Shown one piece after another: positions 1 to 34,774 of a stretch of DNA of 35,126 bases. The stretch's first letter is position 1. Each line of letters opens with the position of its first letter. Below the pieces are notes generated by a model. The model ran no database searches, was not told where the DNA came from, and saw nothing but the letters and a program-made list of their open reading frames with translations. Source of the DNA: a virus (taxonomy: Duplodnaviria; Heunggongvirae; Uroviricota; Caudoviricetes); the IMG/VR virus record IMGVR_UViG_2619619134_000012; one strand, 5' to 3'. Made by a program: the position numbers and the translations under genes.

Positions 1-483
1 ATGACGAAGAAAAAAGCACATAAACCTGGTTCAGCGACCATCGCGCTTAACAAGCGCGCCCGTCACGAATACTTTATCGAAGAAGAGTTCGAAGCGGGAC
101 TTGCCCTGCAAGGCTGGGAAGTTAAATCCCTGCGCGCAGGAAAAGCCAATATCAGCGACAGCTACGTCCTTCTGCGTGACGGAGAGGCATTTCTGTTTGG
201 CGCTAACATCACGCCAATGGCCGTGGCCTCCACGCATGTGGTGTGCGATCCTACCCGTACCCGCAAGTTACTTCTCAACCAGCGCGAACTGGACTCATTG
301 TACGGTCGCGTCAATCGAGAAGGCTATACCGTAGTGGCGCTCTCCCTGTACTGGAAAAATGCCTGGTGCAAAGTGAAAATCGGCGTCGCCAAAGGTAAGA
401 AACAGCACGATAAACGTTCAGATATCAAAGAGCGCGAATGGCAGGTGGATAAAGCACGTATCATGAAAAACGCCCACCGTTAA
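1..483 (+). CDS. smpB: SsrA-binding protein SmpB
   Basis: 160-aa ORF ([47 protein letters not shown]...) recognised as enterobacterial SmpB; lies immediately upstream of tmRNA as in the conserved smpB-ssrA arrangement. Confidence 0.95.
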
Positions 484-697
484 ACCTGCACTCCAATTAT
501 TGACCAGTTCCTCACCGCGCCTCCCTCTCCGGCGGCGCGAATGAACATCTTATTGGCTATCACATCCGACACAAATGTTGCCATCCCATTGCTTAATCGA
601 ATAAAAATCAGGCTACATGGGTGCTAAATCTTTAACGATAACGCCATTGAGGCTGGTCATGGCGCTCATAAATCTGGTATACTTACCTTTACACATT

Positions 698-1060
698 GGG
701 GCTGATTCTGGATTCGACGGGATTTGCGAAACCCAAGGTGCATGCCGAGGGGCGGTTGGCCTCGTAAAAAGCCGCAAAAAATAGTCGCAAACGACGAAAA
801 CTACGCTTTAGCAGCTTAATAACCTGCTTAGAGCCCTCTCTCCCTAGCCTCCGCTCTTAGGACGGGGATCAAGAGAGGTCAAACCCAAAAGAGATCGCGT
901 GGAAGCCCTGCCTGGGGTTGAAGCGTTAAAACTTAATCAGGCTAGTTTGTTAGTGGCGTGTCCGTCCGCAGCTGGCAAGCGAATGTAAAGACTGACTAAG
1001 CATGTAGTACCGAGGATGTAGGAATTTCGGACGCGGGTTCAACTCCCGCCAGCTCCACCA
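698..1060 (+). ncRNA. ssrA: tmRNA (transfer-messenger RNA, 10Sa RNA)
   Basis: 363 nt starting GGGGCTGATTCTGGATTCGACGGG and ending in the tRNA-like ...GGTTCAACTCCCGCCAGCTCCACCA; internal tag reading frame 787-819 GCAAACGACGAAAACTACGCTTTAGCAGCTTAA encodes ANDENYALAA-stop. Confidence 0.95.
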
Positions 1061-8742: not shown

Positions 8743-9930
8743 ATGAATACATATACACTAACAAGCTACAGCATAATTTACTCTATTTTGATTCCTTTTA
8801 TTATATACTTTGCACTATCTATTCTCCCTGTTTTTCGCAGACCAATAATAGAAGATGGTCCAGGGAAATATATTTATCTTGACCCATTAAGAGGCCTTGC
8901 TGCAGTTTTTGTATTTATACACCACTCAATAATGATCTACAATTTACATACGATAGGTACTTTTGCACCAGACGGGGCATTTTCTTACGCATCACAAGCA
9001 GTAACTGTCACATATTACCACTTCGGTCAATCATCTGTGATGATTTTCTTCATGATTACTGGTTTCTTATTTTTTGGGAAAATATTAAATTTCGAAAAAA
9101 AATTTATAAGTGACGACTTCTTTTTATCCAGAATAAAAAGATTATTCCCCGCAATGTGTTCTTGCTTTATCCTTTATATTATCGCATGTTTTCTTTTATC
9201 TGACACCACAGCTAATAACAATTATTTAGAACATGTGTTATCTTGGTTTTCATTTGGTTTTATAAATCTACCAAAAGTTTCAAGCAACATAGATGGTTGG
9301 ATGTTAGTTGCGGGAGTTTTTTGGACGTTAGTTATTGAATGGAAATTTTATCTCATCACCCCTTTATTGAGTTCATTAATTAACACCAAAATTAAATCAA
9401 TTTGTTTTATTCTAATTGCATCTTGCATAACAATACAGTTATTTATAAATAATCAATTAACTGAGAAAGAGGCATCCATATATCTCTGTTTTATTAGCGG
9501 ATTTGTTGCAGCCATAGCCAACAAGTATTATAGAGAGAAATTATCAATGTTATTTACAGGATTTATATCAGCATCATTAATTACTTCCATATACGTATAT
9601 TGTTTTTATAATACCATTGGCTCTTATAACTTCCAAGTTACTGGTGCATTATTTTTGCTGTTTATATCAATAGTATCAGGGAATTCTTTTTTTGGAATCC
9701 TAAAAATTAAAGCTCTGCACTGCGCAGGAAAATGTAGTTATAGTGTATATATAATGCATGCTTTAATATTGAATATTATTTTCTTTGTTATGGCAAAACA
9801 ATATGATTATTACGTTTGTTTTTTAGTGGCTTCTGTAACTCTAGGAGTGCTAACCATTCTTAACTACGTGTTTGTAGAAAGAAAATTCATATCAGGAAAG
9901 CAAGAGAAATTAAAGCAAGCAACTATATAA
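8743..9930 (+). CDS. Acyltransferase family 3 integral membrane protein (OafA/Oac-like O-acetyltransferase)
   Basis: 395-aa polytopic membrane protein with acyltransferase-3 signatures (YLDPLRGLAAVFVFIHH; FFMITGFLFFGK; WTLVIEWKFY); strongly AT-rich; opposite strand to the flanking tail genes; occupies the P2 Z/fun position between G and FI. Confidence 0.8.
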   Translation: MNTYTLTSYSIIYSILIPFIIYFALSILPVFRRPIIEDGPGKYIYLDPLRGLAAVFVFIHHSIMIYNLHTIGTFAPDGAFSYASQAVTVTYYHFGQSSVMIFFMITGFLFFGKILNFEKKFISDDFFLSRIKRLFPAMCSCFILYIIACFLLSDTTANNNYLEHVLSWFSFGFINLPKVSSNIDGWMLVAGVFWTLVIEWKFYLITPLLSSLINTKIKSICFILIASCITIQLFINNQLTEKEASIYLCFISGFVAAIANKYYREKLSMLFTGFISASLITSIYVYCFYNTIGSYNFQVTGALFLLFISIVSGNSFFGILKIKALHCAGKCSYSVYIMHALILNIIFFVMAKQYDYYVCFLVASVTLGVLTILNYVFVERKFISGKQEKLKQATI

Positions 9931-14631: not shown

Positions 14632-15078
14632 TCACCCCGCCAGCCAGCGCAGCAGAGTGTCACGGGTGATGGTTTCCACCTCATCATTCACGCCTAACAA
14701 GCGGCGCTCTGCGTAGCGGACCTCCGGGCCTTTTCGGCTGACGCTATCACGCAGGCCGTAATGGTGAACACGGGCAATGCGCTGCACCTTGCCATCAAAC
14801 TGCACGCTGGCGGAGTCCGCACTGGCGGCGGTTTTCAGGTATTTTGTGGTGCGAAGCTTTGCAAACATCTGGCGTTTGATGCGCCCCTTCTTGCTGCGGG
14901 CTGTCACCCGTCGCGGCTCATAGCCGCTGCCGTCAGGATTACGCTGTAGCCTGATGTTCTGCTGCTGCGTCCGGCGCAGCTGTTGCGCCAGTTGCCGCAT
15001 CATACGGTTGCGTGCAGCAGGCTCCAGATTTGCCAGCAGCGCCGTCAGCCAGTCATCCGCCCTCTGCAGCTCATCCAC
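14632..15078 (-). CDS. S: Tail completion protein S
   Basis: 148-aa ORF overlapping R by 8 nt, at the P2 gpS position. Confidence 0.75.
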   Translation of the reverse strand: MDELQRADDWLTALLANLEPAARNRMMRQLAQQLRRTQQQNIRLQRNPDGSGYEPRRVTARSKKGRIKRQMFAKLRTTKYLKTAASADSASVQFDGKVQRIARVHHYGLRDSVSRKGPEVRYAERRLLGVNDEVETITRDTLLRWLAG

Positions 15079-15574
15079 GTTTCACCGTCCACATTTCTTC
15101 GGGTTCGTCCGGCTCCGGCACCGCTTCAACGCTCGACACGCTGCCGTCAGTGCTGACCAGCACGCGCTCCGTCAGTTGCAGGTTCAGGCTGATATCGCAC
15201 ACATCGTTGCGCAGAATATCCACTTCAAAGGTGAACAGTTTTTCGCGCAGTTCCGGGTTGTTGATGGCATCCGGCTGGCTGGTACTGAGCCACAGCAGGA
15301 CTGGGGCCATCAGCAGATTCTGGTCGCCGCTGAAATCCTCGATCACCACGTTCAGGGTGTAGCGGTACTCCCATGACATGGAGCTGGCACCGGTTGCCAC
15401 CAGTGATCCGTTATCAACGAAAAGGTGCAGCTTGTCCGGGTTATCGCGGACATAGGCAACCGCTTTATTCAGGGCGCTGCGTAAGGACTGCGGTTTGTTC
15501 ACTGTCTCGCTCCTGACACGCAATAATCGTGTCCACTTTGTCAGCACAGACCGCCCAGGCGGCCTCGGTTTCAT
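15071..15574 (-). CDS. R: Tail completion protein R
   Basis: 167-aa ORF with an internal region typical of P2 gpR (...NKAVAYVRDNPDKLHLFVDNGSLVATGASSMSWEYRYTLNVVIEDFSGD...); the true start may lie downstream of 15574. Confidence 0.7.
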   Translation of the reverse strand: MKPRPPGRSVLTKWTRLLRVRSETVNKPQSLRSALNKAVAYVRDNPDKLHLFVDNGSLVATGASSMSWEYRYTLNVVIEDFSGDQNLLMAPVLLWLSTSQPDAINNPELREKLFTFEVDILRNDVCDISLNLQLTERVLVSTDGSVSSVEAVPEPDEPEEMWTVKRG

Positions 15575-15755
15575 CCAGCACCGTATTCAGATCGCCGTTA
15601 CTGCGCGGCGCTGACCTTTCCAGGCGGCACTGCGTCACTCTGGGACAGCCACTCACGGTAAGCTGCACCTCCGGCGAGGGCTGGACGCTCCCGCAGCCGG
15701 ATAATGTCAGCAGGCAAAGGAGTGTCAGCCCAGCGGCGCAAATCCTCGTTTTCAC
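15465..15755 (-). CDS. lysC: Outer-membrane spanin lipoprotein (LysC/Rz1-like)
   Basis: 96-aa ORF with a lipoprotein signal and lipobox (LLTLSGC); starts inside lysB in another frame and extends past its end (overlapped spanin architecture). Confidence 0.7.
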   Translation of the reverse strand: MKTRICAAGLTLLCLLTLSGCGSVQPSPEVQLTVSGCPRVTQCRLERSAPRSNGDLNTVLDETEAAWAVCADKVDTIIACQERDSEQTAVLTQRPE

Positions 15756-16023
15756 GTTTCAGTTCCTCGATCCGGCGCTGGCGACTTCGCAACAGTGCGG
15801 TGGTCTGCTCCGCTGCCGCATAAAGCCGCGTCTGCTCCCGGCTGTTGGTTTCGGTCAGAATGGACAGGCCGATCAGCTGGCTGTTTTTCTTCGTCAGCTC
15901 CTGCGTTTTGCTTTTCAGCGCCGCACCCTGCGTCTCGATGGTGTGGCTGGCATTGTTAAGCTGCCACGACTGCCAGCCCAGCGCCGCAAGTGCCAGCGCC
16001 AGCACTACCGCCAGCGCACGCAT
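15598..16023 (-). CDS. lysB: Inner-membrane spanin (LysB/Rz-like)
   Basis: 141-aa ORF with an N-terminal transmembrane segment and a charged coiled-coil periplasmic domain; follows lysA. Confidence 0.75.
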   Translation of the reverse strand: MRALAVVLALALAALGWQSWQLNNASHTIETQGAALKSKTQELTKKNSQLIGLSILTETNSREQTRLYAAAEQTTALLRSRQRRIEELKRENEDLRRWADTPLPADIIRLRERPALAGGAAYREWLSQSDAVPPGKVSAAQ

Positions 16024-16400
16024 CAGGCCGCCATCGGCTCATGAAGCTGCGCGCGGGCAATCTGATACAAAACCAGCGTCAGCAGGTAGAAGACCAGGGT
16101 GATCACCCATCCCGAAAACGCCAGGCACAGAACAATAAGCAGCCTGATTACCCATGTACGCACGGGTTTTACGGGGTGCGCCCTGAATTTCAGCAATGCC
16201 GCCCTGACCTCATCGCGCGCCCGATCTCCGGCGAACCACCCGACGGTGCACAGCGCAGCAAGCAGCCAGGCGAGGAAGCATGACACCTGGACAGACGCAC
16301 CAACCAGAACCGGCGCACCGCTGCGCGGATACAGCAGGCTGATAACCAACAGCGCAACCCATGCCAGCTGGAAAAAAACGCTCATGACTTTCTTTTTCAT
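16023..16400 (-). CDS. lysA: Lysis-timing membrane protein (LysA-like)
   Basis: 125-aa protein with several hydrophobic helices, between the endolysin and the spanins as in P2. Confidence 0.55.
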   Translation of the reverse strand: MKKKVMSVFFQLAWVALLVISLLYPRSGAPVLVGASVQVSCFLAWLLAALCTVGWFAGDRARDEVRAALLKFRAHPVKPVRTWVIRLLIVLCLAFSGWVITLVFYLLTLVLYQIARAQLHEPMAA

Positions 16401-16404
16401 TCCG

Positions 16405-16941
16405 TTATGCTCCTTTTAAGCACCAGGCCATTTCCCGCGCGCGGCGGTTCTCCAGACCTTTATTTTTCACACCGTTAACGTAAATCCAGCGAGGTAGCTG
16501 GTTGCATGCCTGCCACCACTGCTGGCGATTGATAAATGACACCATGGTTGACCTGCAGATCGCGCCGGTCCCCACATTGAAACCAATGCTCACCAGCGCA
16601 TCGTAGACATGTTGCGGGGGCTTCACTGTCAGGCAGGCATCCAGCCTTTTTTCAGTCAGCAGCACATTGTTTATTAACCCCTGCGCCGCCTGCCGTTCCG
16701 TGATAGTTTTGCCCGGCACCACACCGGACGTATTGCCGATCCCGTCAGTCCACACGCCCGCGCTGCACTGATAAGGCTGCAGGCGGCATCCCTCGTAATC
16801 GGCGATCAGTTTCAGCCCCTCAACGGAGGTATGAAGCGACTGAAATCCGGGCAGCGTGGCGGCGATAGCCAGCACCGCCCCGACAAGGCAGCGCTTAACG
16901 ATTGAAGGATTCATATTCCCCCCGCGAAATTTTGCCGCCAC
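16405..16941 (-). CDS. K: Endolysin, T4-lysozyme-like with an N-terminal signal-anchor-release segment
   Basis: N-terminal hydrophobic stretch CLVGAVLAIAATLP followed by a lysozyme catalytic region (LIADYEGCRLQPYQCSAGVWTDGIGNT); the start may be the internal ATG at 16914. Confidence 0.8.
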   Translation of the reverse strand: MAAKFRGGNMNPSIVKRCLVGAVLAIAATLPGFQSLHTSVEGLKLIADYEGCRLQPYQCSAGVWTDGIGNTSGVVPGKTITERQAAQGLINNVLLTEKRLDACLTVKPPQHVYDALVSIGFNVGTGAICRSTMVSFINRQQWWQACNQLPRWIYVNGVKNKGLENRRAREMAWCLKGA

Positions 16942-17110
16942 GTAACAATTTGAAAGACTGGTGTTTGTAGTACCAGTTGATAGCCAGCATCAGCACACCA
17001 ATCAGTACGCCGCCAACCGTTGACGCATCCTTGAGCGACAGATCGCCCAGCCATGCCAGCAGCACGGCGATGCAGTAAGTGATAAAGGCGCTGATTCGTT
17101 CAAGCGTCAT
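16895..17110 (-). CDS. Y: Holin
   Basis: 71-aa protein with two predicted transmembrane segments and a charged C-terminus, immediately upstream of the endolysin. Confidence 0.6.
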   Translation of the reverse strand: MTLERISAFITYCIAVLLAWLGDLSLKDASTVGGVLIGVLMLAINWYYKHQSFKLLRGGKISRGEYESFNR

Positions 17111-27816: not shown

Positions 27817-28761
27817 TTAAGGCGTTTCCGTAGGTTCGAATTCGTCCCACTCTGGAGGCAGCCCCATTAACCAAAGGCTCAAGGCCGGATTTAACTGGCC
27901 TCCATTTTCCATCTGTGCATTTGAGCCAGTCAGCATCTTTCCAGAAGCCGTTAACCGGACCGGGCCTGCAATCTGTGCCACCACATCCAGACGATCTGTC
28001 GATATTTTCCCTTTGCGAATCCTCCCCCCAGGATCCCCCCCCCCTTGTGGTCGCTGGCTGTTGGCGTGGGCCAGCCAGCCATTTTTACCTGTTGCGCAAG
28101 GCTGCTGCCGGACATGCCCTCGGTAATCCCTCGCCCTCCCCGCCTGCTGTCGCTGGCACTCGGAGTTGTCCAGCCCGAAAGCTGCGCAGCTGTCTGCAAG
28201 TTCAATCCTCCCTGACGGCCCGCGTTGCTGGGATGCTTCCAGGCATTCGCTGTTGGTGTGGACCACCCAATAAGTTCTGTCCCGGATGTTCGGGGCACCG
28301 ACGCTCGCAGCCGGAAACGCACTCGCCCCGAAGGCATAACCCAAGGCTTCCACGTCAGTCTGTACAAGGTCGATCCAGTCATTTGCGTCAGCACTTGCAG
28401 ATTGCTCGCCAAAGACAACGACAGGGCGACGCTGCCCGACCAACCAATGCATGGCGGGCCATAAGTGCCGCTCGTCAGCAAACCCTTTTCCTTTGCCTGC
28501 CGCGCTGAAAGGCTGGCATGGGCAGGAACCTGTCCAGACTTCTCTGCTGTCTTCCCAGCCCACACGGCGCAGGGCATATGACCAAATGCCAACCCCTGCA
28601 AAGAAATGGACCTGAGCAAATCCTCGTAAATCATCGGGTCTGACATCTTCAATACTCCTTTCATCTACAACACCCGGCATAATGCGACCGGCAGCCATGT
28701 GTACGCGCAGCCGCGCAGCTGCAAACGGGTCTATCTCGTTGTAATAAGCCCACGCACTCAC
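27817..28761 (-). CDS. DNA (cytosine-5) methyltransferase-like protein; coding frame ambiguous (possible frameshift or phase-variable gene)
   Basis: Frame starting at GTG 28761 carries C5-methyltransferase motifs I ([12 protein letters not shown]), IV ([15 protein letters not shown]), VIII ([13 protein letters not shown]) and a motif IX-like C-terminus ([19 protein letters not shown]); an overlapping second frame and a G10 tract complicate the call. Confidence 0.45.
27951..28664 (-). other. Alternative-frame ORF (237 aa) fully overlapping the methyltransferase-like gene, with three tandem GW[STP]TP[TS]A repeats
   Basis: Open across about 700 nt in a second frame; tandem repeat units start near 28279, 28175 and 28077 (period about 100 nt); passes through the G10 tract. 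Confidence 0.3.
28035..28044. repeat. Homopolymer tract C10 (G10 on the coding strand) inside the methyltransferase-like gene
   Basis: Plus strand ...GGATCCCCCCCCCCTTGTGG...; a second C6 run lies at 28024-28029. Confidence 0.9.
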
Positions 28762-29615
28762 GCCTGCACCTCATACTTAACGCAGCAATCAGGACCGCCA
28801 GCAGGATCAAAACCAATCCAGTGATGAGGTTTAGAAGTAGCGATGATTTCCACGGCGGACTTACCATCACCGGCAGCCACACCCATGCTGCGCTTTGCCG
28901 TCAGCCGATAGCGGGAGAAATTGCGATAAAGAGAACGGGTCAAAGATGTATCACTGTTGGACACAATGACCGGATGACCTTCTGATGAACGACGCTCAAG
29001 AATAGACGCCAGATGATACTGATCATCCTCAGTAAATCCGGCGGTGTGATAACCGGTAAACGTTCCGTCATATGGCGGATCGCAATAAACCACATCACCA
29101 GTCTTCAGCAGTGCCAGTGTTTCCTCATAGCTGGCACAGATAAACGTTGCACGTTGTGCCTTTTCTGCAAAAGCGCGTATTTCGTTTTCGGGGAAGTACG
29201 GATTTTTATAATTACCGTAAGGAACATTAAAGTGACCACTCAAGTTATAGCGGCACAGTCCGCGATAACAATGGCGATTAAGATAAATAAACATGGCTGC
29301 GCGGCAATCCACAGGCCAATCACGTCCATGGTTAAATTCTTTTCGAATATCGTAGTAATCCTCTGCCGATTTATTTTTAGCAAATAAATCCTTGCCAATT
29401 GAGATTAATAATTCAGGTCCGCTTTTAATGGCATTGTAAAGACTTATCAGATCTGGATTAATATCCGCGACAAGATAATGAGGATAGTCTGTCTCCATCA
29501 TCACAGCGCACGAACCCGCGAAAGGCTCAACCAGTCGCGGGCCTGCTGGAAGGTGTTTTTTCAGTTCTGGCATTATGGCGGTTTTATTACCCGCCCATTT
29601 CAGGATGGTGCTCAT
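28758..29615 (-). CDS. DNA adenine (N6) methyltransferase, Dam/D12 class
   Basis: Start at ATG 29615 ([18 protein letters not shown]...); motifs KWAGNK, FAGSCAV and DPPY; stop overlaps the start of the cytosine methyltransferase-like gene. Confidence 0.85.
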
Positions 29616-29839
29616 ACAGCCCCCCCTACGTAATGTTTGCCTTTCAGCTCTGCGATTTCCTGACAGGTGACGCAACACTGCACGCCCGGAATAGCGCGGC
29701 GGCGAGCTGGCGGGATCGGTGCATCGCAATCAATGCAGAGCACACGGGAAACGCCCGGTGTTCTGTTGCGGGCGGTGTGGATGTGGCGCTGACGTTCTTC
29801 TTCAACGCGCTGCTGTACAAGGTCCATTGAATCAGCCAT
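29612..29839 (-). CDS. TraR/DksA-family C4 zinc-finger protein
   Basis: 75 aa with CIDCDAPIP...CCVTCQ, a Cys4 arrangement typical of phage TraR-like proteins. Confidence 0.7.
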   Translation of the reverse strand: MADSMDLVQQRVEEERQRHIHTARNRTPGVSRVLCIDCDAPIPPARRRAIPGVQCCVTCQEIAELKGKHYVGGAV

Positions 29840-32190: not shown

Positions 32191-33216
32191 ATGACCATCA
32201 GAAAACAGCCGAACGGAAAATGGTTGTGCGAGTGTTACCCGAACGGGCGTGACGGTAAGCGCGTGCGCAAGCAATTTGCGACAAAGGGCGAGGCTGTAGC
32301 ATTCGAAAACTTCACCATGGATGAAGTGAACAAAAAGCCGTGGCTGGGTGAAAAGGAAGATCGGCGGCGTTTGTCAGAATTGATTGAGCAGTGGCATTCA
32401 CTTTATGGGCAGACGCTGGCTGACCCCAAACGCCTTATGGCAAAACTCAGCATTATTTGTAATGGCCTTGGTGATCCCATCGCCTCAGAGTTAACCGCAG
32501 GCGATTTTACGAAATACCGGGAAGCACGTCTAAAAGGTGAAGTAAAAAATGAAGATGGCGTGCTTATGTCGCCAGTTAAACCCCGCACGGTAAACCTTGA
32601 GCAACGCAACCTATCCTCTGTTTTTGGCACGCTGAAAAAGCTGGGCCATTGGTCAGCCCCAAACCCGCTAGCCGGTCTGCCAACATTCAAAATTGCCGAA
32701 GGTGAATTGGCGTTCCTAGCCCCGGAAGAAATTAAACGCCTGCTGGATTCCTGTGCTGAATCTCAAAGCCCCAGCTTACTGATGATTGCAAAAGTATGCC
32801 TAGCCACTGGTGCACGATGGAGTGAAGCAGAAAACCTACAAGGACACCAGCTGTCGAAATATCGCATCACCTACACCAAGACCAAAGGCAAGAAAAACAG
32901 AACCGTGCCAATATCACAAGATCTGTATGACGAACTACCCAAGAACAGAGGGAAGTTATTCACGCCATGTAGAAAAGCCTTTGAGCGCGCAGTGAAGCGG
33001 GCCGGAATCGATCTGCCAGAGGGTCAATGTACTCATGTGCTGCGCCATACATTCGCCAGCCATTTTATGATGAACGGCGGAAACATACTGGTGCTGCGCG
33101 ATATTCTAGGCCATGCCGATATAAAAATGACAATGGTATATGCTCACTTTGCACCCGATCACCTCGAAGATGCAGTGACAAAAAACCCGCTTCACAATCT
33201 CAACTGGAAGCGCTAA
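32191..33216 (+). CDS. int: Tyrosine integrase of the prophage
   Basis: 341 aa with the C-terminal catalytic region HVLRHTFASHFMMNGGNILVLRDILGHADIKMTMVYAH; adjacent to the right att repeat. Confidence 0.9.
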   Translation: MTIRKQPNGKWLCECYPNGRDGKRVRKQFATKGEAVAFENFTMDEVNKKPWLGEKEDRRRLSELIEQWHSLYGQTLADPKRLMAKLSIICNGLGDPIASELTAGDFTKYREARLKGEVKNEDGVLMSPVKPRTVNLEQRNLSSVFGTLKKLGHWSAPNPLAGLPTFKIAEGELAFLAPEEIKRLLDSCAESQSPSLLMIAKVCLATGARWSEAENLQGHQLSKYRITYTKTKGKKNRTVPISQDLYDELPKNRGKLFTPCRKAFERAVKRAGIDLPEGQCTHVLRHTFASHFMMNGGNILVLRDILGHADIKMTMVYAHFAPDHLEDAVTKNPLHNLNWKR

Positions 33217-33333
33217 TTTATGGCGGCATTTTGGCGGCAGAGCATTAAAAACGCATAAAACGGACAAACACCAAATAACACTAACCCACTGTTTCTAAAG
33301 GTAACTCACTGTTTTTATTATACTAAAAATGGT

Positions 33334-33379
33334 ATGTAGGAATTTCGGACGCGGGTTCAACTCCCGCCAGCTCCACCAA
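33334..33379. repeat. attR: displaced 3' end of ssrA (46-bp core repeat)
   Basis: Identical to 1016-1061; followed by a terminator hairpin and a second integrase. Confidence 0.8.
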
Positions 33380-33412
33380 TTTTTGATATATTGAAGTTCA
33401 GTGAAGTCTATC

Positions 33413-33447
33413 AAGCCCGCATGGAACCAGCCTTGCGGGCTTTTTTA
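33413..33447 (+). terminator. Rho-independent terminator after the displaced ssrA 3' fragment (probably the ancestral ssrA terminator)
   Basis: GCCCGCA ... TGCGGGC stem followed by TTTTTT. Confidence 0.55.
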
Positions 33448-33544
33448 CGTCTATAGTAGTCTACCGAGAATTGCTAGAATCTACTCGTTATGGCACCCTT
33501 TTTGGGACCCAACACAAAGGGTCCAAAACATGAGGGTCCCAAAC

Positions 33545-34774
33545 ATGGCAAAAATCGCTAAGAAGCTCACTGACACTGAAATCAAAAGCACCAAACCTGC
33601 CGAGAAAGAGGTTAACCTTTTTGACGGCGATGGTTTGCTCCTGCGAATCGCCCCCTTAGCGAAGGGAGGAAAGAAAAATTGGTATTTCAGATATGCAGTG
33701 CCTGTGACCAAAAAGCGAACTAAGGTGAGCTTAGGAACCTATCCTCACCTTACACTTGCGAAGGCACGAGCTTTACGTGATGAGTACTTGTCGTTGCTTG
33801 CAAATGGTATAGACCCACAAGTTCATAACACCCACAAAGCCAATGCCCTTAAGGATGCAACGGAACATACATTTCAAGCAGTAGCCAAGAAGTGGCTTGA
33901 TGAGAAAGTCAAAACGTCAGGCATCTCCCAGGATCATGCTAACGACATCTGGCGAAGCCTAGAGAGAAATATCTTTCCAACGTTGGGTGATACCCCCATT
34001 AAGGAGATTCGCCCTAAAATGCTTAAACAGCATTTAGACCCCATAGAAAAACGAGGTGTCCTTGAAACACTTCGCCGCGTCATATCCCGCCTGAATGAAA
34101 TTTTCCGCTATGCAGCAACAGAAGAACTCATAGAATTCAATCCGGCTGACAACCTGGGGCAACGGTTCAGCAAGCCAAAAAAACAGAATATGCCAGCATT
34201 ACCCCCTTCCGAACTCCCCCGCTTCCTGGTTGCTCTAAACAATGCTTCTATCCGTTTAGAAACAAGGCTACTGATTGAGTGGCAACTTCTCACATGGGTT
34301 CGCCCTGGTGAAGCTGTTCGCACAAGATGGTCAGATATTGATATAGAAACCAGCATGTGGAACATCCCGGCGGAGTTTATGAAAATGAAGAAGCCTCACA
34401 AAGTTCCACTGAGCAAAGAATCTTTGCGAGTCTTGGATTCAATGAAAGCCATCAGCGGGCATAGAGAGTGGGTTTTTCCCAGTATCAAAGCTCCACTCAA
34501 TCACATGCATGAACAAACAGCTAATGCGGCTATAATCCGTATGGGCTTCGGAGGTGAGCTTGTAGCTCATGGTATGCGATCAATCGCTAGAACGGCGGCT
34601 GAGGAGTGTGGCAAGTTTAGAACTGATGTCTTAGAAGCCGCCCTTGCCCACTCGAAAAAAGATGAAATAATTGCAGCCTACAATCGTGCAGAGTATCTCA
34701 CAGAACGTGTGGTTCTCATGCAATGGTGGAGTGACTATGTTTCGTCTCAAAAATACAAAGTTATTGCCGCATAA
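33545..34774 (+). CDS. P4/CP4-57-family tyrosine integrase of a second, tandem integrative element
   Basis: Start at MAKIAKKLTDTEIKSTKPAEKEVNLFDGDGLLLRIAPL..., clearly related to E. coli CP4-57 IntA (LTDTEIK, DGDGL, DIWRSLER, HGMRSIA, LAH); sits directly 3' of the ssrA-derived repeat. Confidence 0.85.
   Translation: MAKIAKKLTDTEIKSTKPAEKEVNLFDGDGLLLRIAPLAKGGKKNWYFRYAVPVTKKRTKVSLGTYPHLTLAKARALRDEYLSLLANGIDPQVHNTHKANALKDATEHTFQAVAKKWLDEKVKTSGISQDHANDIWRSLERNIFPTLGDTPIKEIRPKMLKQHLDPIEKRGVLETLRRVISRLNEIFRYAATEELIEFNPADNLGQRFSKPKKQNMPALPPSELPRFLVALNNASIRLETRLLIEWQLLTWVRPGEAVRTRWSDIDIETSMWNIPAEFMKMKKPHKVPLSKESLRVLDSMKAISGHREWVFPSIKAPLNHMHEQTANAAIIRMGFGGELVAHGMRSIARTAAEECGKFRTDVLEAALAHSKKDEIIAAYNRAEYLTERVVLMQWWSDYVSSQKYKVIAA

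What the first reader, a model, noticed from the sequence alone, without database searches (positions are those of the whole stretch)
15465..16941. Lysis cassette with a signal-anchor-release-type endolysin and overlapped spanin genes
The endolysin has an N-terminal hydrophobic segment (CLVGAVLAIAATLP) ahead of a T4-lysozyme-like catalytic region, suggesting secretion-dependent activation. The lipoprotein spanin gene starts inside the inner-membrane spanin gene in another frame and extends beyond it. Both are known architectures, noted for annotation accuracy.
Basis: partly seen in the sequence, partly recalled or inferred. Interest (0 to 1): 0.2.

Follow-up and report, generated by a model that had tools for sequence, protein, structure and literature searches.

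The report
Ordinary P2/Fels-2-type phage lysis cassette
This is the standard host-lysis gene block of a Fels-2/P2-like prophage: a small holin, a membrane-tethered lysozyme like that of phage P1, a LysA membrane protein and overlapping LysB/LysC spanin genes.

Summary
The window is a Fels-2-like (Peduoviridae) prophage inserted next to smpB and ssrA. Its lysis genes lie on the minus strand in P2 order:
- Endolysin, 16914..16405.
- i-spanin LysB, 16023..15598.
- o-spanin LysC, 15755..15465.

The endolysin is a GH24 lysozyme. Its best solved relative, by sequence and by fold, is P1 Lyz. It has a Lys-Arg-flanked, Gly/Ala-rich N-terminal helix. It also has the P1-type cysteine set: Glu41-Cys50-Thr56, caging Cys43 and leader Cys9. 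That leader cysteine is conserved 30-32 residues before the catalytic Glu in 21 of 23 distinct homologous leaders.

lysC starts inside lysB in the +1 frame. It overlaps lysB by 158 nt, runs 133 nt beyond it and ends 38 nt inside gene R. This is P2's geometry. Its lipobox is LTLSG|C21, and substitutions show purifying selection in its own frame.

Corrections:
- The true endolysin start is ATG 16914, not GTG 16941.
- The mechanism is specifically P1-like disulfide caging (inferred).

Salmonella phage SEN8 (93.7% identical) already annotates the same cassette. It is already known and of low interest.

The parts
16895..17110 (-). Holin, 71 aa, class II (two hydrophobic segments, about residues 6-22 and 29-48; basic C-tail). 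HP1 holin family, a candidate pinholin. Its last 20 nt overlap the endolysin start.
   Evidence: PF16080 Phage_holin_2_3, 36.6 bits (cut-off 28.8), and phrog_20 holin E=3e-26. Hydropathy. C-tail has 6 K+R against 2 D+E. SEN8 annotates the identical protein as 'pin holin'. The HP1 holin was shown experimentally to behave as a pinholin (PMC7312051).
16405..16914 (-). Endolysin, 169 aa, GH24 muramidase with an N-terminal signal-anchor-release (SAR) domain, P1 Lyz type. The ORF reaches a GTG at 16941, which is not the likely start.
   Evidence: PF00959 E=1.8e-37. P1 Lyz 1XJT E=3.6e-28. The AF2 model's best fold match is 1XJT. The exact protein is called from the ATG in public assemblies.
16843..16914 (-). 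Endolysin residues 1-24: n-region MNPSIVKR plus SAR core CLVGAVLAIAATLPGF, containing Cys9.
   Evidence: Hydropathy and composition. Predicted helix at residues 3-18. K7, R8 and C9 are invariant in A1. A single leader Cys lies 30-32 aa before the catalytic Glu in 21 of 23 distinct leaders.
16747..16794 (-). Catalytic motif E41-G-C43-x6-C50-x5-T56: Glu-Cys-Thr triad plus caging Cys.
   Evidence: Aligns to P1 Lyz EGCRRDPYMCPAGVWT. P1 triad is Glu42/Cys51/Thr57 (PMC8228626, Table 3). Invariant in A1.
16023..16400 (-). LysA-family membrane protein, 125 aa. About four hydrophobic segments, N-in/C-in by the positive-inside rule. Putative lysis-timing regulator (antiholin). Its stop overlaps the lysB start by 1 nt.
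   Evidence: NF038378, 124.9 bits. The identical protein carries PF28015 LysA in public contigs. 24% identity to P2 LysA over 136 aa. Hydropathy. Loop 57-81 has 7 K+R. phrog_162 labels it 'endolysin', probably wrongly.
15598..16023 (-). i-spanin LysB (Rz-like), 141 aa, with an N-terminal transmembrane segment and a periplasmic helical domain. It has no cysteine.
   Evidence: TIGR03495 phage_LysB equivalog, 173.7 bits (cut-off 92.75). phrog_89 E=2.6e-45. 26% identity to P2 LysB. Hydropathy. Cys count.
15465..15755 (-). o-spanin LysC (Rz1-like), 96 aa, GTG start, +1 frame relative to lysB. Its last 38 nt overlap tail gene R.
   Evidence: NF038368 P2_Rz1 equivalog, 123.1 bits (cut-off 27). PF23793 LysC. 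40% identity to P2 LysC. Frame-specific purifying selection. Conserved in 8 relatives.
15693..15755 (-). LysC lipoprotein signal: MKTR + ICAAGLTLLCLLT + lipobox L-S-G-C21. The +2 residue is Gly, which implies outer-membrane sorting.
   Evidence: PROSITE PS51257 rule met. Lipobox conserved as L(T/A)LSGC in all relatives. +2 residue.
15598..15755 (-). 158-nt stretch read in two frames (lysB C-terminus and lysC N-terminus).
   Evidence: Geometry computed. In this stretch variable sites are spread evenly over the codon positions of both frames.

Best explanation
This is the late-operon lysis module of a Fels-2-like P2-family prophage. It most likely works by the pinholin / SAR-endolysin / two-component-spanin route.

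1. **Holin.** The 71-aa two-helix holin accumulates in the inner membrane.
2. **Export and tethering.** The Sec system exports the endolysin, which stays tethered by its uncleaved N-terminal helix (residues about 9-24). It is enzymatically dead there because catalytic Cys50 is locked in a disulfide with Cys43.
3. **Trigger and activation.** The holin triggers and the membrane potential collapses, so the weakly hydrophobic helix leaves the bilayer. The thiol of Cys9 then attacks the Cys43-Cys50 bond. This gives Cys9-Cys43, frees Cys50 and activates the muramidase, as in P1 Lyz.
4. **Outer membrane.** With the murein gone, the LysB (inner membrane) - LysC (outer-membrane lipoprotein) complex fuses the two membranes.
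5. **Timing.** The LysA-family four-helix protein modulates timing, as in P2, and is dispensable.

What is shown here: gene identities, family memberships, the motif and cysteine pattern and their conservation, the overlap geometry, and selection on lysC.

What is inferred: non-cleavage of the anchor, disulfide isomerisation, small-hole behaviour of the holin, and the role of LysA.
For: **Context**
- Gene order X-holin-endolysin-lysA-lysB-lysC-R-S is identical to P2 and to SEN8, Fels-2 and MLG42.
- SEN8 is 93.7% identical over 2 kb. It annotates pin holin, endolysin, membrane protein, i-spanin and o-spanin.

**Endolysin**
- PF00959 match.
- The closest solved structure is P1 Lyz, by sequence and by fold.
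- E41/C43/C50/T56 align with P1 E42/C44/C51/T57.
- Among 1.8 billion cluster representatives, N-terminal hydrophobic leaders co-occur with the E-x-C...C...T motif. 31 of 36 leader-bearing hits have all three cysteines.
- 21 of 23 distinct leaders have a single Cys 30-32 residues before the Glu. In P1 the distance is 29.
- There are seven cysteines, an odd number, and all are invariant among 15 homologues.

**Spanins**
- Equivalog HMM hits.
- Same +1 frame as P2, and the same 38-nt overlap with R.
- Lipobox and four periplasmic Cys conserved, also in P2 LysC.
- Frame-specific selection.
- Fels-2 is listed in overlapped spanin families (PMC6139136).

**Holin**
- HP1 family by HMM. HP1's holin and endolysin were shown experimentally to be a pinholin and a SAR endolysin (PMC7312051).

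**LysA**
- Family hits.
- P2 lysA is non-essential and affects lysis timing (annotation; PMC3091744).
- The gene is absent from RE-2010, Cartapus and ST13-OXA48phi12.1.
Against: - No experiment and no dedicated topology or signal-peptide predictor was available.
- The leader contains A16-I17-A18, a possible signal-peptidase I site, so cleavage cannot be excluded from sequence alone.
- Cys9 does not align column-for-column with P1 Cys13. It lies six alignment positions earlier, right at the cytoplasmic edge of the helix.
- The AF2 model is of low confidence at residues 40-65, the catalytic hairpin. It gives no information on disulfide geometry.
- The holin matches the HP1 family only modestly (36.6 bits) and was not linked to HP1 by tblastn at E<=1e-3.
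- P1 itself uses a holin reported as canonical (PMC6116005), so a SAR endolysin does not prove a pinholin.
- The LysA role as antiholin rests on old P2 genetics and on 24% identity.
Confidence: 0.85

Rival explanations
1. The N-terminal hydrophobic segment of the endolysin is an ordinary cleavable Sec signal peptide, as in Oenococcus phage fOg44 Lys44. The enzyme would then be released soluble into the periplasm and be restrained in some other way.
For: The leader has a signal-peptide-like layout: a basic n-region, a 16-residue h-region, and a possible A-x-A site at residues 16-18. SAR domains and signal peptides are often confused by predictors, as reported for HP1 Lys (PMC7312051).
Against: Cleavage would discard Cys9. 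Yet a single leader Cys at a fixed distance from the catalytic Glu is conserved in 21 of 23 diverged leaders that carry the Cys43/Cys50 pair. The closest structural and sequence relative is P1 Lyz, whose anchor is known not to be cleaved (Xu et al. 2004, from my own knowledge; the paper is not held). The predicted model aligns with full-length active P1 Lyz, leader helix included.
Confidence: 0.08
2. It is a SAR endolysin, but it is activated as in phage 21 R: purely by refolding after the helix leaves the membrane, with no disulfide isomerisation. The cysteines would be structural only.
For: R21 (3HDE) is also a significant sequence and fold match. Cys9 is not in the same alignment column as P1 Cys13.
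Against: The catalytic position holds Cys, not the Asp of R21 and T4L. The E+2 caging Cys is present exactly as in P1. All three cysteines are invariant and co-occur with the leader across the family. The odd cysteine count (7) fits one free thiol.
Confidence: 0.12
3. The holin is a canonical large-hole holin rather than a pinholin. The rest of the pathway is unchanged.
For: P1 pairs its SAR endolysin with a holin reported as canonical (PMC6116005). Hole size cannot be read from sequence. The match to the phage 21 S family is below cut-off (20.4 bits against 26).
Against: The protein passes the HP1 holin family cut-off, and HP1's holin behaved as a pinholin. It has the class II two-helix layout, with an S30-x3-G34-x3-G38 motif in helix 2 reminiscent of the S21 glycine zipper (read from the sequence; the comparison is from my own knowledge).
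Confidence: 0.25
4. The lysC reading frame is a chance ORF in GC-rich DNA, and only lysB is a real gene.
For: The window is full of long spurious ORFs. The PROSITE lipobox rule is matched by 11 of 1134 start/ORF combinations. Many public annotations omit or truncate lysC.
Against: Equivalog HMM at 123 bits (cut-off 27) and a Pfam LysC match. 40% identity to P2 LysC, whose alleles have genetic phenotypes (Markov et al. 2004, cited in PMC3091744). The ORF, start, lipobox and four Cys are conserved in 8 relatives. Third-position bias and the syn:nonsyn ratio appear only in the lysC frame.
Confidence: 0.01

Closest known systems
Lysis cassettes of Salmonella phage SEN8, Fels-2, SopEPhi, RE-2010 and Yersinia phage vB_YpM_MLG42 (Peduoviridae, Felsduovirus/Elveevirus)
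   Same: 90-94% nucleotide identity over the cassette, with the same gene order. The holin is identical in SEN8, Fels-2, RE-2010 and SopEPhi. SEN8 annotates pin holin, endolysin, membrane protein, i-spanin and o-spanin. Fels-2 notes similarity of its endolysin to P1 Lyz.
   Different: The C-terminal half of the window's endolysin is of the allele seen in Klebsiella, Enterobacter and Citrobacter prophages: 93-98% identity against about 79% to the Salmonella type. Fels-2 has a different or broken lysA region, and RE-2010 lacks lysA.
Phage P1 endolysin Lyz (PDB 1XJT/1XJU), a SAR endolysin activated by disulfide isomerisation
   Same: GH24 fold. Glu-Cys-Thr triad, caging Cys two residues after the Glu, and one Cys in the N-terminal anchor. 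Best sequence and fold match among solved structures.
   Different: Only about 34-36% identity. The anchor Cys is 32 rather than 29 residues before the Glu and sits at the cytoplasmic edge, right after Lys-Arg. P1 has an insertion in the C-terminal lobe. The P1 lyz gene is not part of a P2-type cassette.
Phage P2 lysis module Y-K-lysA-lysB-lysC
   Same: Same position between X and R, and the same order. LysA, LysB and LysC are homologous (24%, 26% and 40% identity). lysC is in the +1 frame, with 158 nt overlap against 146 nt in P2, 133 nt beyond lysB against 145 nt, and a 38-nt overlap with R in both.
   Different: The holin and endolysin are unrelated to P2 Y (a three-helix class I holin) and K (a soluble lambda-R-like enzyme). 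This is a module swap. LysB here has no cysteine, whereas P2 LysB has two.
Haemophilus phage HP1 hol/lys (pinholin + SAR endolysin) and phage 21 S21/R21
   Same: A small class II holin of the same Pfam family as HP1's (PF16080). hol and lys overlap. The endolysin has an N-terminal anchor.
   Different: The relationship is distant: HMM only, with no tblastn link at 1e-3. R21 uses Asp and no cysteine switch. The window's holin has no dual-start antiholin, since a stop codon lies two codons upstream.
Lambda Rz/Rz1
   Same: A two-component spanin: a type II inner-membrane protein plus an outer-membrane lipoprotein encoded in the +1 frame.
   Different: Lambda Rz1 is fully embedded in Rz. Here the o-spanin gene is overlapped and extends beyond (PMC6139136). 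The sequence families differ.

Membership tests
GH24 / T4-type phage lysozyme (PF00959) | Profile match above the curated cut-off over the whole domain | tested here: met
   128.9 bits against 22.3, profile positions 2-125 of 125.
GH24 / T4-type phage lysozyme (PF00959) | Catalytic triad E-8aa-D/C-5aa-T | tested here: met
   E41, C50 and T56. The triad definition is in PMC4640515. Alignment to P1 Lyz.
SAR (signal-anchor-release) endolysin | N-terminal transmembrane segment, preceded by basic residues and rich in weakly hydrophobic/small residues | tested here: met
   K7 and R8, then 16 uncharged residues that are 44% G/A/S/T, with KD 2.1. Predicted helix at 3-18. TMHMM and SignalP were not available.
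SAR (signal-anchor-release) endolysin | Anchor not cleaved by signal peptidase; Sec-dependent export; release on membrane depolarisation | not testable with these tools
   Needs fractionation and western blots, azide or SecA depletion, and CCCP triggering.
P1 Lyz-type disulfide-caged SAR endolysin | Catalytic Cys in place of Asp, plus a caging Cys at Glu+2 | tested here: met
   EGCRLQPYQC aligns with P1 EGCRRDPYMC. Invariant in A1.
P1 Lyz-type disulfide-caged SAR endolysin | A cysteine inside the SAR domain that can displace the caging disulfide | tested here: met
   Cys9. A single leader Cys lies 30-32 aa before the Glu in 21 of 23 distinct leaders. It is not in the same alignment column as P1 Cys13.
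P1 Lyz-type disulfide-caged SAR endolysin | Actual disulfide isomerisation (C43-C50 to C9-C43) on release | not testable with these tools
   Needs Cys mutants and disulfide mapping. The structure tool returns no coordinates.
Two-component spanin, overlapped architecture (Kongari et al. 2018) | i-spanin: N-terminal transmembrane segment plus a periplasmic helical domain | tested here: met
   Hydrophobic residues 2-17. TIGR03495 equivalog. A weak coiled-coil-like bZIP hit.
Two-component spanin, overlapped architecture (Kongari et al. 2018) | o-spanin: signal peptidase II lipobox, with no Asp at +2 | tested here: met
   LTLSG|C21 with G22. PS51257 rule met, and the lipobox is conserved. The rule alone is weak (11 of 1134). 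LipoP was not available.
Two-component spanin, overlapped architecture (Kongari et al. 2018) | o-spanin gene starts inside the i-spanin gene in another frame and ends beyond it | tested here: met
   +1 frame, 158 nt shared, 133 nt beyond.
P2 LysB / LysC equivalogs (TIGR03495, NF038368, PF23793) | Score above the curated cut-offs | tested here: met
   173.7 against 92.75, 123.1 against 27, and 50.9 against 27.
Pinholin | Small class II holin with two transmembrane helices | tested here: met
   Two hydropathy peaks and a basic C-tail. PF16080, 36.6 against 28.8.
Pinholin | Forms only small, depolarising holes; helix 1 leaves the membrane | not testable with these tools
   Inferred from HP1 (PMC7312051). 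Helix 1 is 35% small residues with KD 2.1, which is not decisive.
P2 LysA family (PF28015 / NF038378) | Profile match, and a multi-pass membrane protein located between the endolysin and lysB | tested here: met
   NF038378, 124.9 bits (cut-off 40). The identical protein carries PF28015 in L011-L013. 24% identity to P2 LysA. The local Pfam copy lacks this model.
P2 LysA family (PF28015 / NF038378) | Antiholin / lysis-timing function | not testable with these tools
   Rests on P2 genetics cited in PMC3091744.

The most novel reading that the evidence does not exclude
The endolysin may represent a large enterobacterial subfamily with its own variant of the P1 Lyz switch. In it the activating cysteine sits at the very cytoplasmic edge of the anchor, right after Lys-Arg and a fixed 30-32 residues before the catalytic Glu. 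The enzyme also has two further conserved cysteine pairs. The LysA-family protein, present or absent between otherwise near-identical phages, may be a dedicated regulator of this pinholin/SAR pair. Both would refine known mechanisms rather than found a new kind.
Probability: 0.15. Interest if true: 0.25.

Novelty: already known. Interest (0 to 1): 0.1.

Why it matters
It matters mainly for annotation quality.

- The o-spanin gene lysC is missing or truncated in many public records of this phage group.
- The endolysin start is set too far downstream in Fels-2 RefSeq and in vB_EcoM-813R9. That removes the anchor and its cysteine.
- PHROG 162 labels the LysA membrane protein an 'endolysin'.

Correct calls matter for anyone who clones these endolysins as antibacterials. 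A SAR domain with a regulatory cysteine changes how the enzyme must be expressed and whether it is active. Biologically, the cassette illustrates module swapping inside a conserved P2 late operon. Nothing here challenges current understanding.

Tried and rejected
1. **GTG 16941 as the start, or as a second (dual) start of the endolysin.** Rejected. It has no Shine-Dalgarno sequence. The extension is only the holin's C-terminal coding region read in another frame. It is absent in the E. coli and Klebsiella relatives.
2. **A dual-start antiholin in the holin gene.** Rejected. A TGA lies two codons upstream in frame. One Klebsiella relative does begin MM-.
3. **The PROSITE lipobox rule as stand-alone proof.** Too permissive: 11 of 1134 combinations match.
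4. **A tblastn link from the holin to HP1.** None found at E<=1e-3. The relationship rests on the Pfam HMM only.
5. **The weak bZIP_1 hit on LysB.** It is below cut-off and is read only as a sign of a coiled-coil-like helix.
6. **The promoter/terminator scan.** Nothing convincing inside the cassette. The only sensible site is a terminator-like hairpin at 14659..14633, right after gene S, where P2 also has its operon terminator.
7. **Primary papers on P1 Lyz, R21 and disulfide caging.** PMC404059, PMC3075974 and PMC2953681 are not held. The residue numbers for Cys13 and Cys44 of P1, and the non-cleavage of its anchor, therefore rest on my own knowledge of Xu et al. 2004/2005. The triad Glu42/Cys51/Thr57 is cited from PMC8228626.
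8. **Structure prediction.** It gave only moderate confidence (pLDDT 75, below 50 at residues 40-65) and no coordinates. It could not test disulfide geometry.
Full report
**Context**

The 35-kb window is a P2-family prophage.
- It begins with smpB (1-483) and the tmRNA gene ssrA (698-1060). ssrA is the attachment site used by Fels-2 (my own knowledge).
- From about position 1016 it matches Fels-2-like phages at about 90-92% identity. These are Yersinia phage vB_YpM_MLG42, Salmonella phages SEN8, SopEPhi, Fels-2 and RE-2010.
- It ends with a phage integrase gene near 32191-33216, followed by a second integrase.
- The finding lies in the late morphogenetic operon on the minus strand, between tail gene X and tail-completion genes R and S. 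This is where P2 keeps its lysis genes.

**What is there**

Five genes lie on the minus strand.
- Holin, 17110..16895, 71 aa.
- Endolysin, 16914..16405, 169 aa.
- LysA-family protein, 16400..16023, 125 aa.
- LysB, 16023..15598, 141 aa.
- LysC, 15755..15465, 96 aa, GTG start.

The junctions are tight.
- Holin and endolysin overlap by 20 nt.
- A 4-nt gap separates the endolysin from lysA, with an AAGGAG ribosome-binding site.
- lysA and lysB overlap by 1 nt.
- lysB and lysC overlap by 158 nt.
- lysC and R overlap by 38 nt.

**Endolysin start**

The ORF finder reports GTG 16941, but ATG 16914 is the likely start.
- A GGGGGGA run precedes the ATG. The GTG has no such site.
- The upstream extension exists only in the Salmonella-type relatives, where it is just the holin's 3' end read in another frame. 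The E. coli and Klebsiella relatives start at the ATG.
- Public assemblies call exactly the 169-aa protein. It is on record in 737 blocks of the collection.

**Endolysin identity and mechanism**

- It matches Phage_lysozyme/GH24 (PF00959, E=1.8e-37) and PHROG 7.
- The best solved relatives are the two P1 Lyz structures: 1XJT, E=3.6e-28, and 1XJU. They rank ahead of R21 and DLP12 RrrD.
- An AlphaFold model (pLDDT 75; helix 3-18) has 1XJT, 'active form of P1 phage endolysin Lyz', as its top fold match. The TM-score is 0.71 over 170 columns.
- The N-terminus is MNPSIVKR followed by CLVGAVLAIAATLPGF. That is 16 uncharged residues, 44% Gly/Ala/Ser/Thr. This is the make-up expected of a signal-anchor-release domain.
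- The catalytic motif is E41-G-C43-RLQPYQ-C50-SAGVW-T56. It aligns with P1's EGCRRDPYMCPAGVWT. P1's triad is Glu42/Cys51/Thr57 (PMC8228626). The general triad is E-8aa-D/C-5aa-T (PMC4640515).
- The enzyme is therefore of the Cys-type, with the Glu+2 'caging' cysteine and a cysteine (C9) in the anchor. In P1 Lyz these three residues form the disulfide-isomerisation switch (Xu et al. 2005, cited; the mechanism is from my own knowledge).

Conservation supports a function for C9.
- In a scan of 1.84 billion cluster representatives, 31 of the 36 leader-bearing top hits have all three cysteines.
- After removing duplicates, 21 of 23 distinct leaders have exactly one leader Cys, 30-32 residues before the Glu. 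The two exceptions look N-terminally truncated.
- All seven cysteines (9, 43, 50, 94, 120, 137, 165) are invariant among 15 homologues at 71-93% identity. An odd number fits one free thiol at any time. This last point is inference.

**Spanins**

- LysB is an equivalog-level match to TIGR03495, and LysC to NF038368 'P2_Rz1' and Pfam LysC.
- Against P2 itself they are 26% and 40% identical.
- The geometry is the same as P2's:

| Feature | Window | P2 |
|---|---|---|
| lysC frame relative to lysB | +1 | +1 |
| nt shared by lysB and lysC | 158 | 146 |
| nt of lysC beyond the lysB stop | 133 | 145 |
| nt of lysC inside R | 38 | 38 |

- This agrees with the published description of P2 lysC (PMC3091744).
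- LysC has the signal MKTR-ICAAGLTLLCLLT-LSG|C21, with Gly at +2. The mature lipoprotein is 76 aa and 6.6% proline.
- A lipobox alone is not significant here, since 11 of 1134 start/ORF combinations pass the PROSITE rule.
- However, the ORF, its GTG start, the lipobox and four periplasmic cysteines (37, 43, 70, 80; also present in P2 LysC) are conserved in all eight relatives.
- In the stretch read only as lysC, third codon positions vary most: 17/32 against 8/32 and 5/31. Synonymous:nonsynonymous differences are 164:121 in frame, against 47:250 and 37:257 out of frame.
- Kongari et al. 2018 list Fels-2 and RE-2010 in overlapped i-spanin and o-spanin families.

**Holin and LysA**

- The holin passes the HP1 holin family cut-off (PF16080, 36.6 bits against 28.8). 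It falls just short for the phage 21 S family.
- It has two hydrophobic helices and a basic tail. SEN8 calls the identical protein a 'pin holin'.
- HP1's holin and endolysin were characterised as a pinholin and a SAR endolysin (PMC7312051).
- Whether this holin makes small or large holes cannot be told from sequence. P1 pairs its SAR enzyme with a canonical holin (PMC6116005).
- The 125-aa protein has about four hydrophobic segments, a basic N-terminus and a basic central loop.
- It matches NF038378. In identical copies it carries the newer Pfam model PF28015 'LysA'. It is 24% identical to P2 LysA.
- P2 lysA is non-essential and affects lysis timing.
- Consistent with an accessory role, the gene is absent from RE-2010, Cartapus and ST13-OXA48phi12.1. 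It is different or broken in Fels-2.

**Comparison and novelty**

- Relative to P2, lysA, lysB and lysC are homologous. The holin and endolysin are replaced by an unrelated pair of HP1/P1 type.
- The whole arrangement is already present, and largely correctly annotated, in SEN8 (93.7% identity). Fels-2's record notes the P1 Lyz similarity.
- The finding is therefore real, correctly interpreted and ordinary.
- Its practical value is as a template for correcting frequent errors: missing or truncated lysC, endolysin starts that cut off the anchor, and LysA labelled 'endolysin'.

**Limits**

- No dedicated topology, signal-peptide or lipoprotein predictor could be run, and no experiment.
- Non-cleavage of the anchor, the disulfide switch, pinhole formation and the LysA role are inferences from homology and conservation.

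Noticed in passing
window 1-1060 and 32191-34774: smpB (1-483) and the tmRNA gene ssrA (698-1060, tag ANDENYALAA) flank the prophage. So it sits at the ssrA site, as Fels-2 does. After the prophage integrase (about 32191-33216) a second, larger integrase gene (33401-34774; Arm-DNA-bind_3 + Phage_int_M + Phage_integrase) begins. This suggests a second element integrated in tandem.
   Followed up: partly
window 8743-9930 (+): A 395-aa Acyl_transf_3 / O-antigen O-acetyltransferase-like gene lies on the opposite strand, between the tail sheath gene and the tail-fibre assembly gene. It is a likely lysogenic-conversion 'moron' (PF01757 E=3.8e-25; phrog_3333).
   Followed up: partly
window 27817-29729 (-): Two adjacent DNA methyltransferase genes: a Dam-like D12 N6-adenine enzyme (28758-29729, E=3.6e-71) and a partial-looking C5-cytosine methylase match (27817-28761). 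Both hit orphan/type II MTase models in PADLOC, with no partner nuclease seen.
   Followed up: partly
L005, L006, L008 (lysA absent); L002:2224-2599 (Fels-2); window 16023-16400: The lysA-like gene is a presence/absence polymorphism among otherwise collinear relatives. In RE-2010, Cartapus and ST13-OXA48phi12.1 the endolysin abuts lysB directly. Fels-2 has two small unrelated or broken ORFs in its place.
   Followed up: partly
proteins P0023, P0053 and about 45 other 276-296-aa hits: Many public assemblies encode endolysin-LysA fusion proteins (PF00959 + PF28015). Comparison with the unfused E. coli phage sequence (L004) suggests independent 1-nt deletions near the endolysin stop, one of them in a GGG run. 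These could be real inactivating or tethering mutations in E. coli prophages, or assembly errors. P0014 (235 aa) is a similar holin-endolysin fusion.
   Followed up: partly
window 16405-16680 (endolysin residues about 80-169): The endolysin is mosaic. Residues 1-80 are nearly identical in all relatives. The C-terminal half is the allele found in Citrobacter, Enterobacter and Klebsiella prophages (93-98% overall identity). It is not the allele of the Salmonella phages that best match the flanking DNA (about 79%).
   Followed up: partly
L002 (Fels-2 RefSeq), L003, L004, L005-L008, L010, L012: Public annotation errors. lysC is absent (Cartapus, RE-2010, ST437-OXA245phi4.1, L010, L012). Elsewhere it is truncated to 117-249 nt, which cuts off the lipoprotein signal (MLG42, 813R9, ST13-OXA48phi12.1, L011, L013). 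The endolysin start is set 11-13 codons too far downstream in Fels-2 and 813R9, removing the basic n-region and Cys9. PHROG 162 and RefSeq label LysA 'endolysin'.
   Followed up: yes
window 15598-16023 and 15465-15755: The i-spanin LysB has no cysteine at all, whereas P2 LysB has two. The o-spanin keeps four periplasmic cysteines shared with P2 LysC. Any covalent linkage in this spanin would therefore have to be within or between LysC chains only.
   Followed up: no
endolysin residues 40-65 (window 16720-16797): AlphaFold confidence drops below 50 exactly over the catalytic hairpin that carries Glu41, Cys43, Cys50 and Thr56, while the rest of the domain is at 75-95. From my own knowledge, this hairpin is the part that differs between the inactive and active P1 Lyz crystal forms. 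The low confidence may equally reflect the shallow alignment.
   Followed up: no
window 14633-14659 (-): A terminator-like hairpin (10 pairs) lies right at the end of gene S. P2 has its putative O-operon terminator at the same place. The lysis genes thus appear to be internal to one long late transcript.
   Followed up: no
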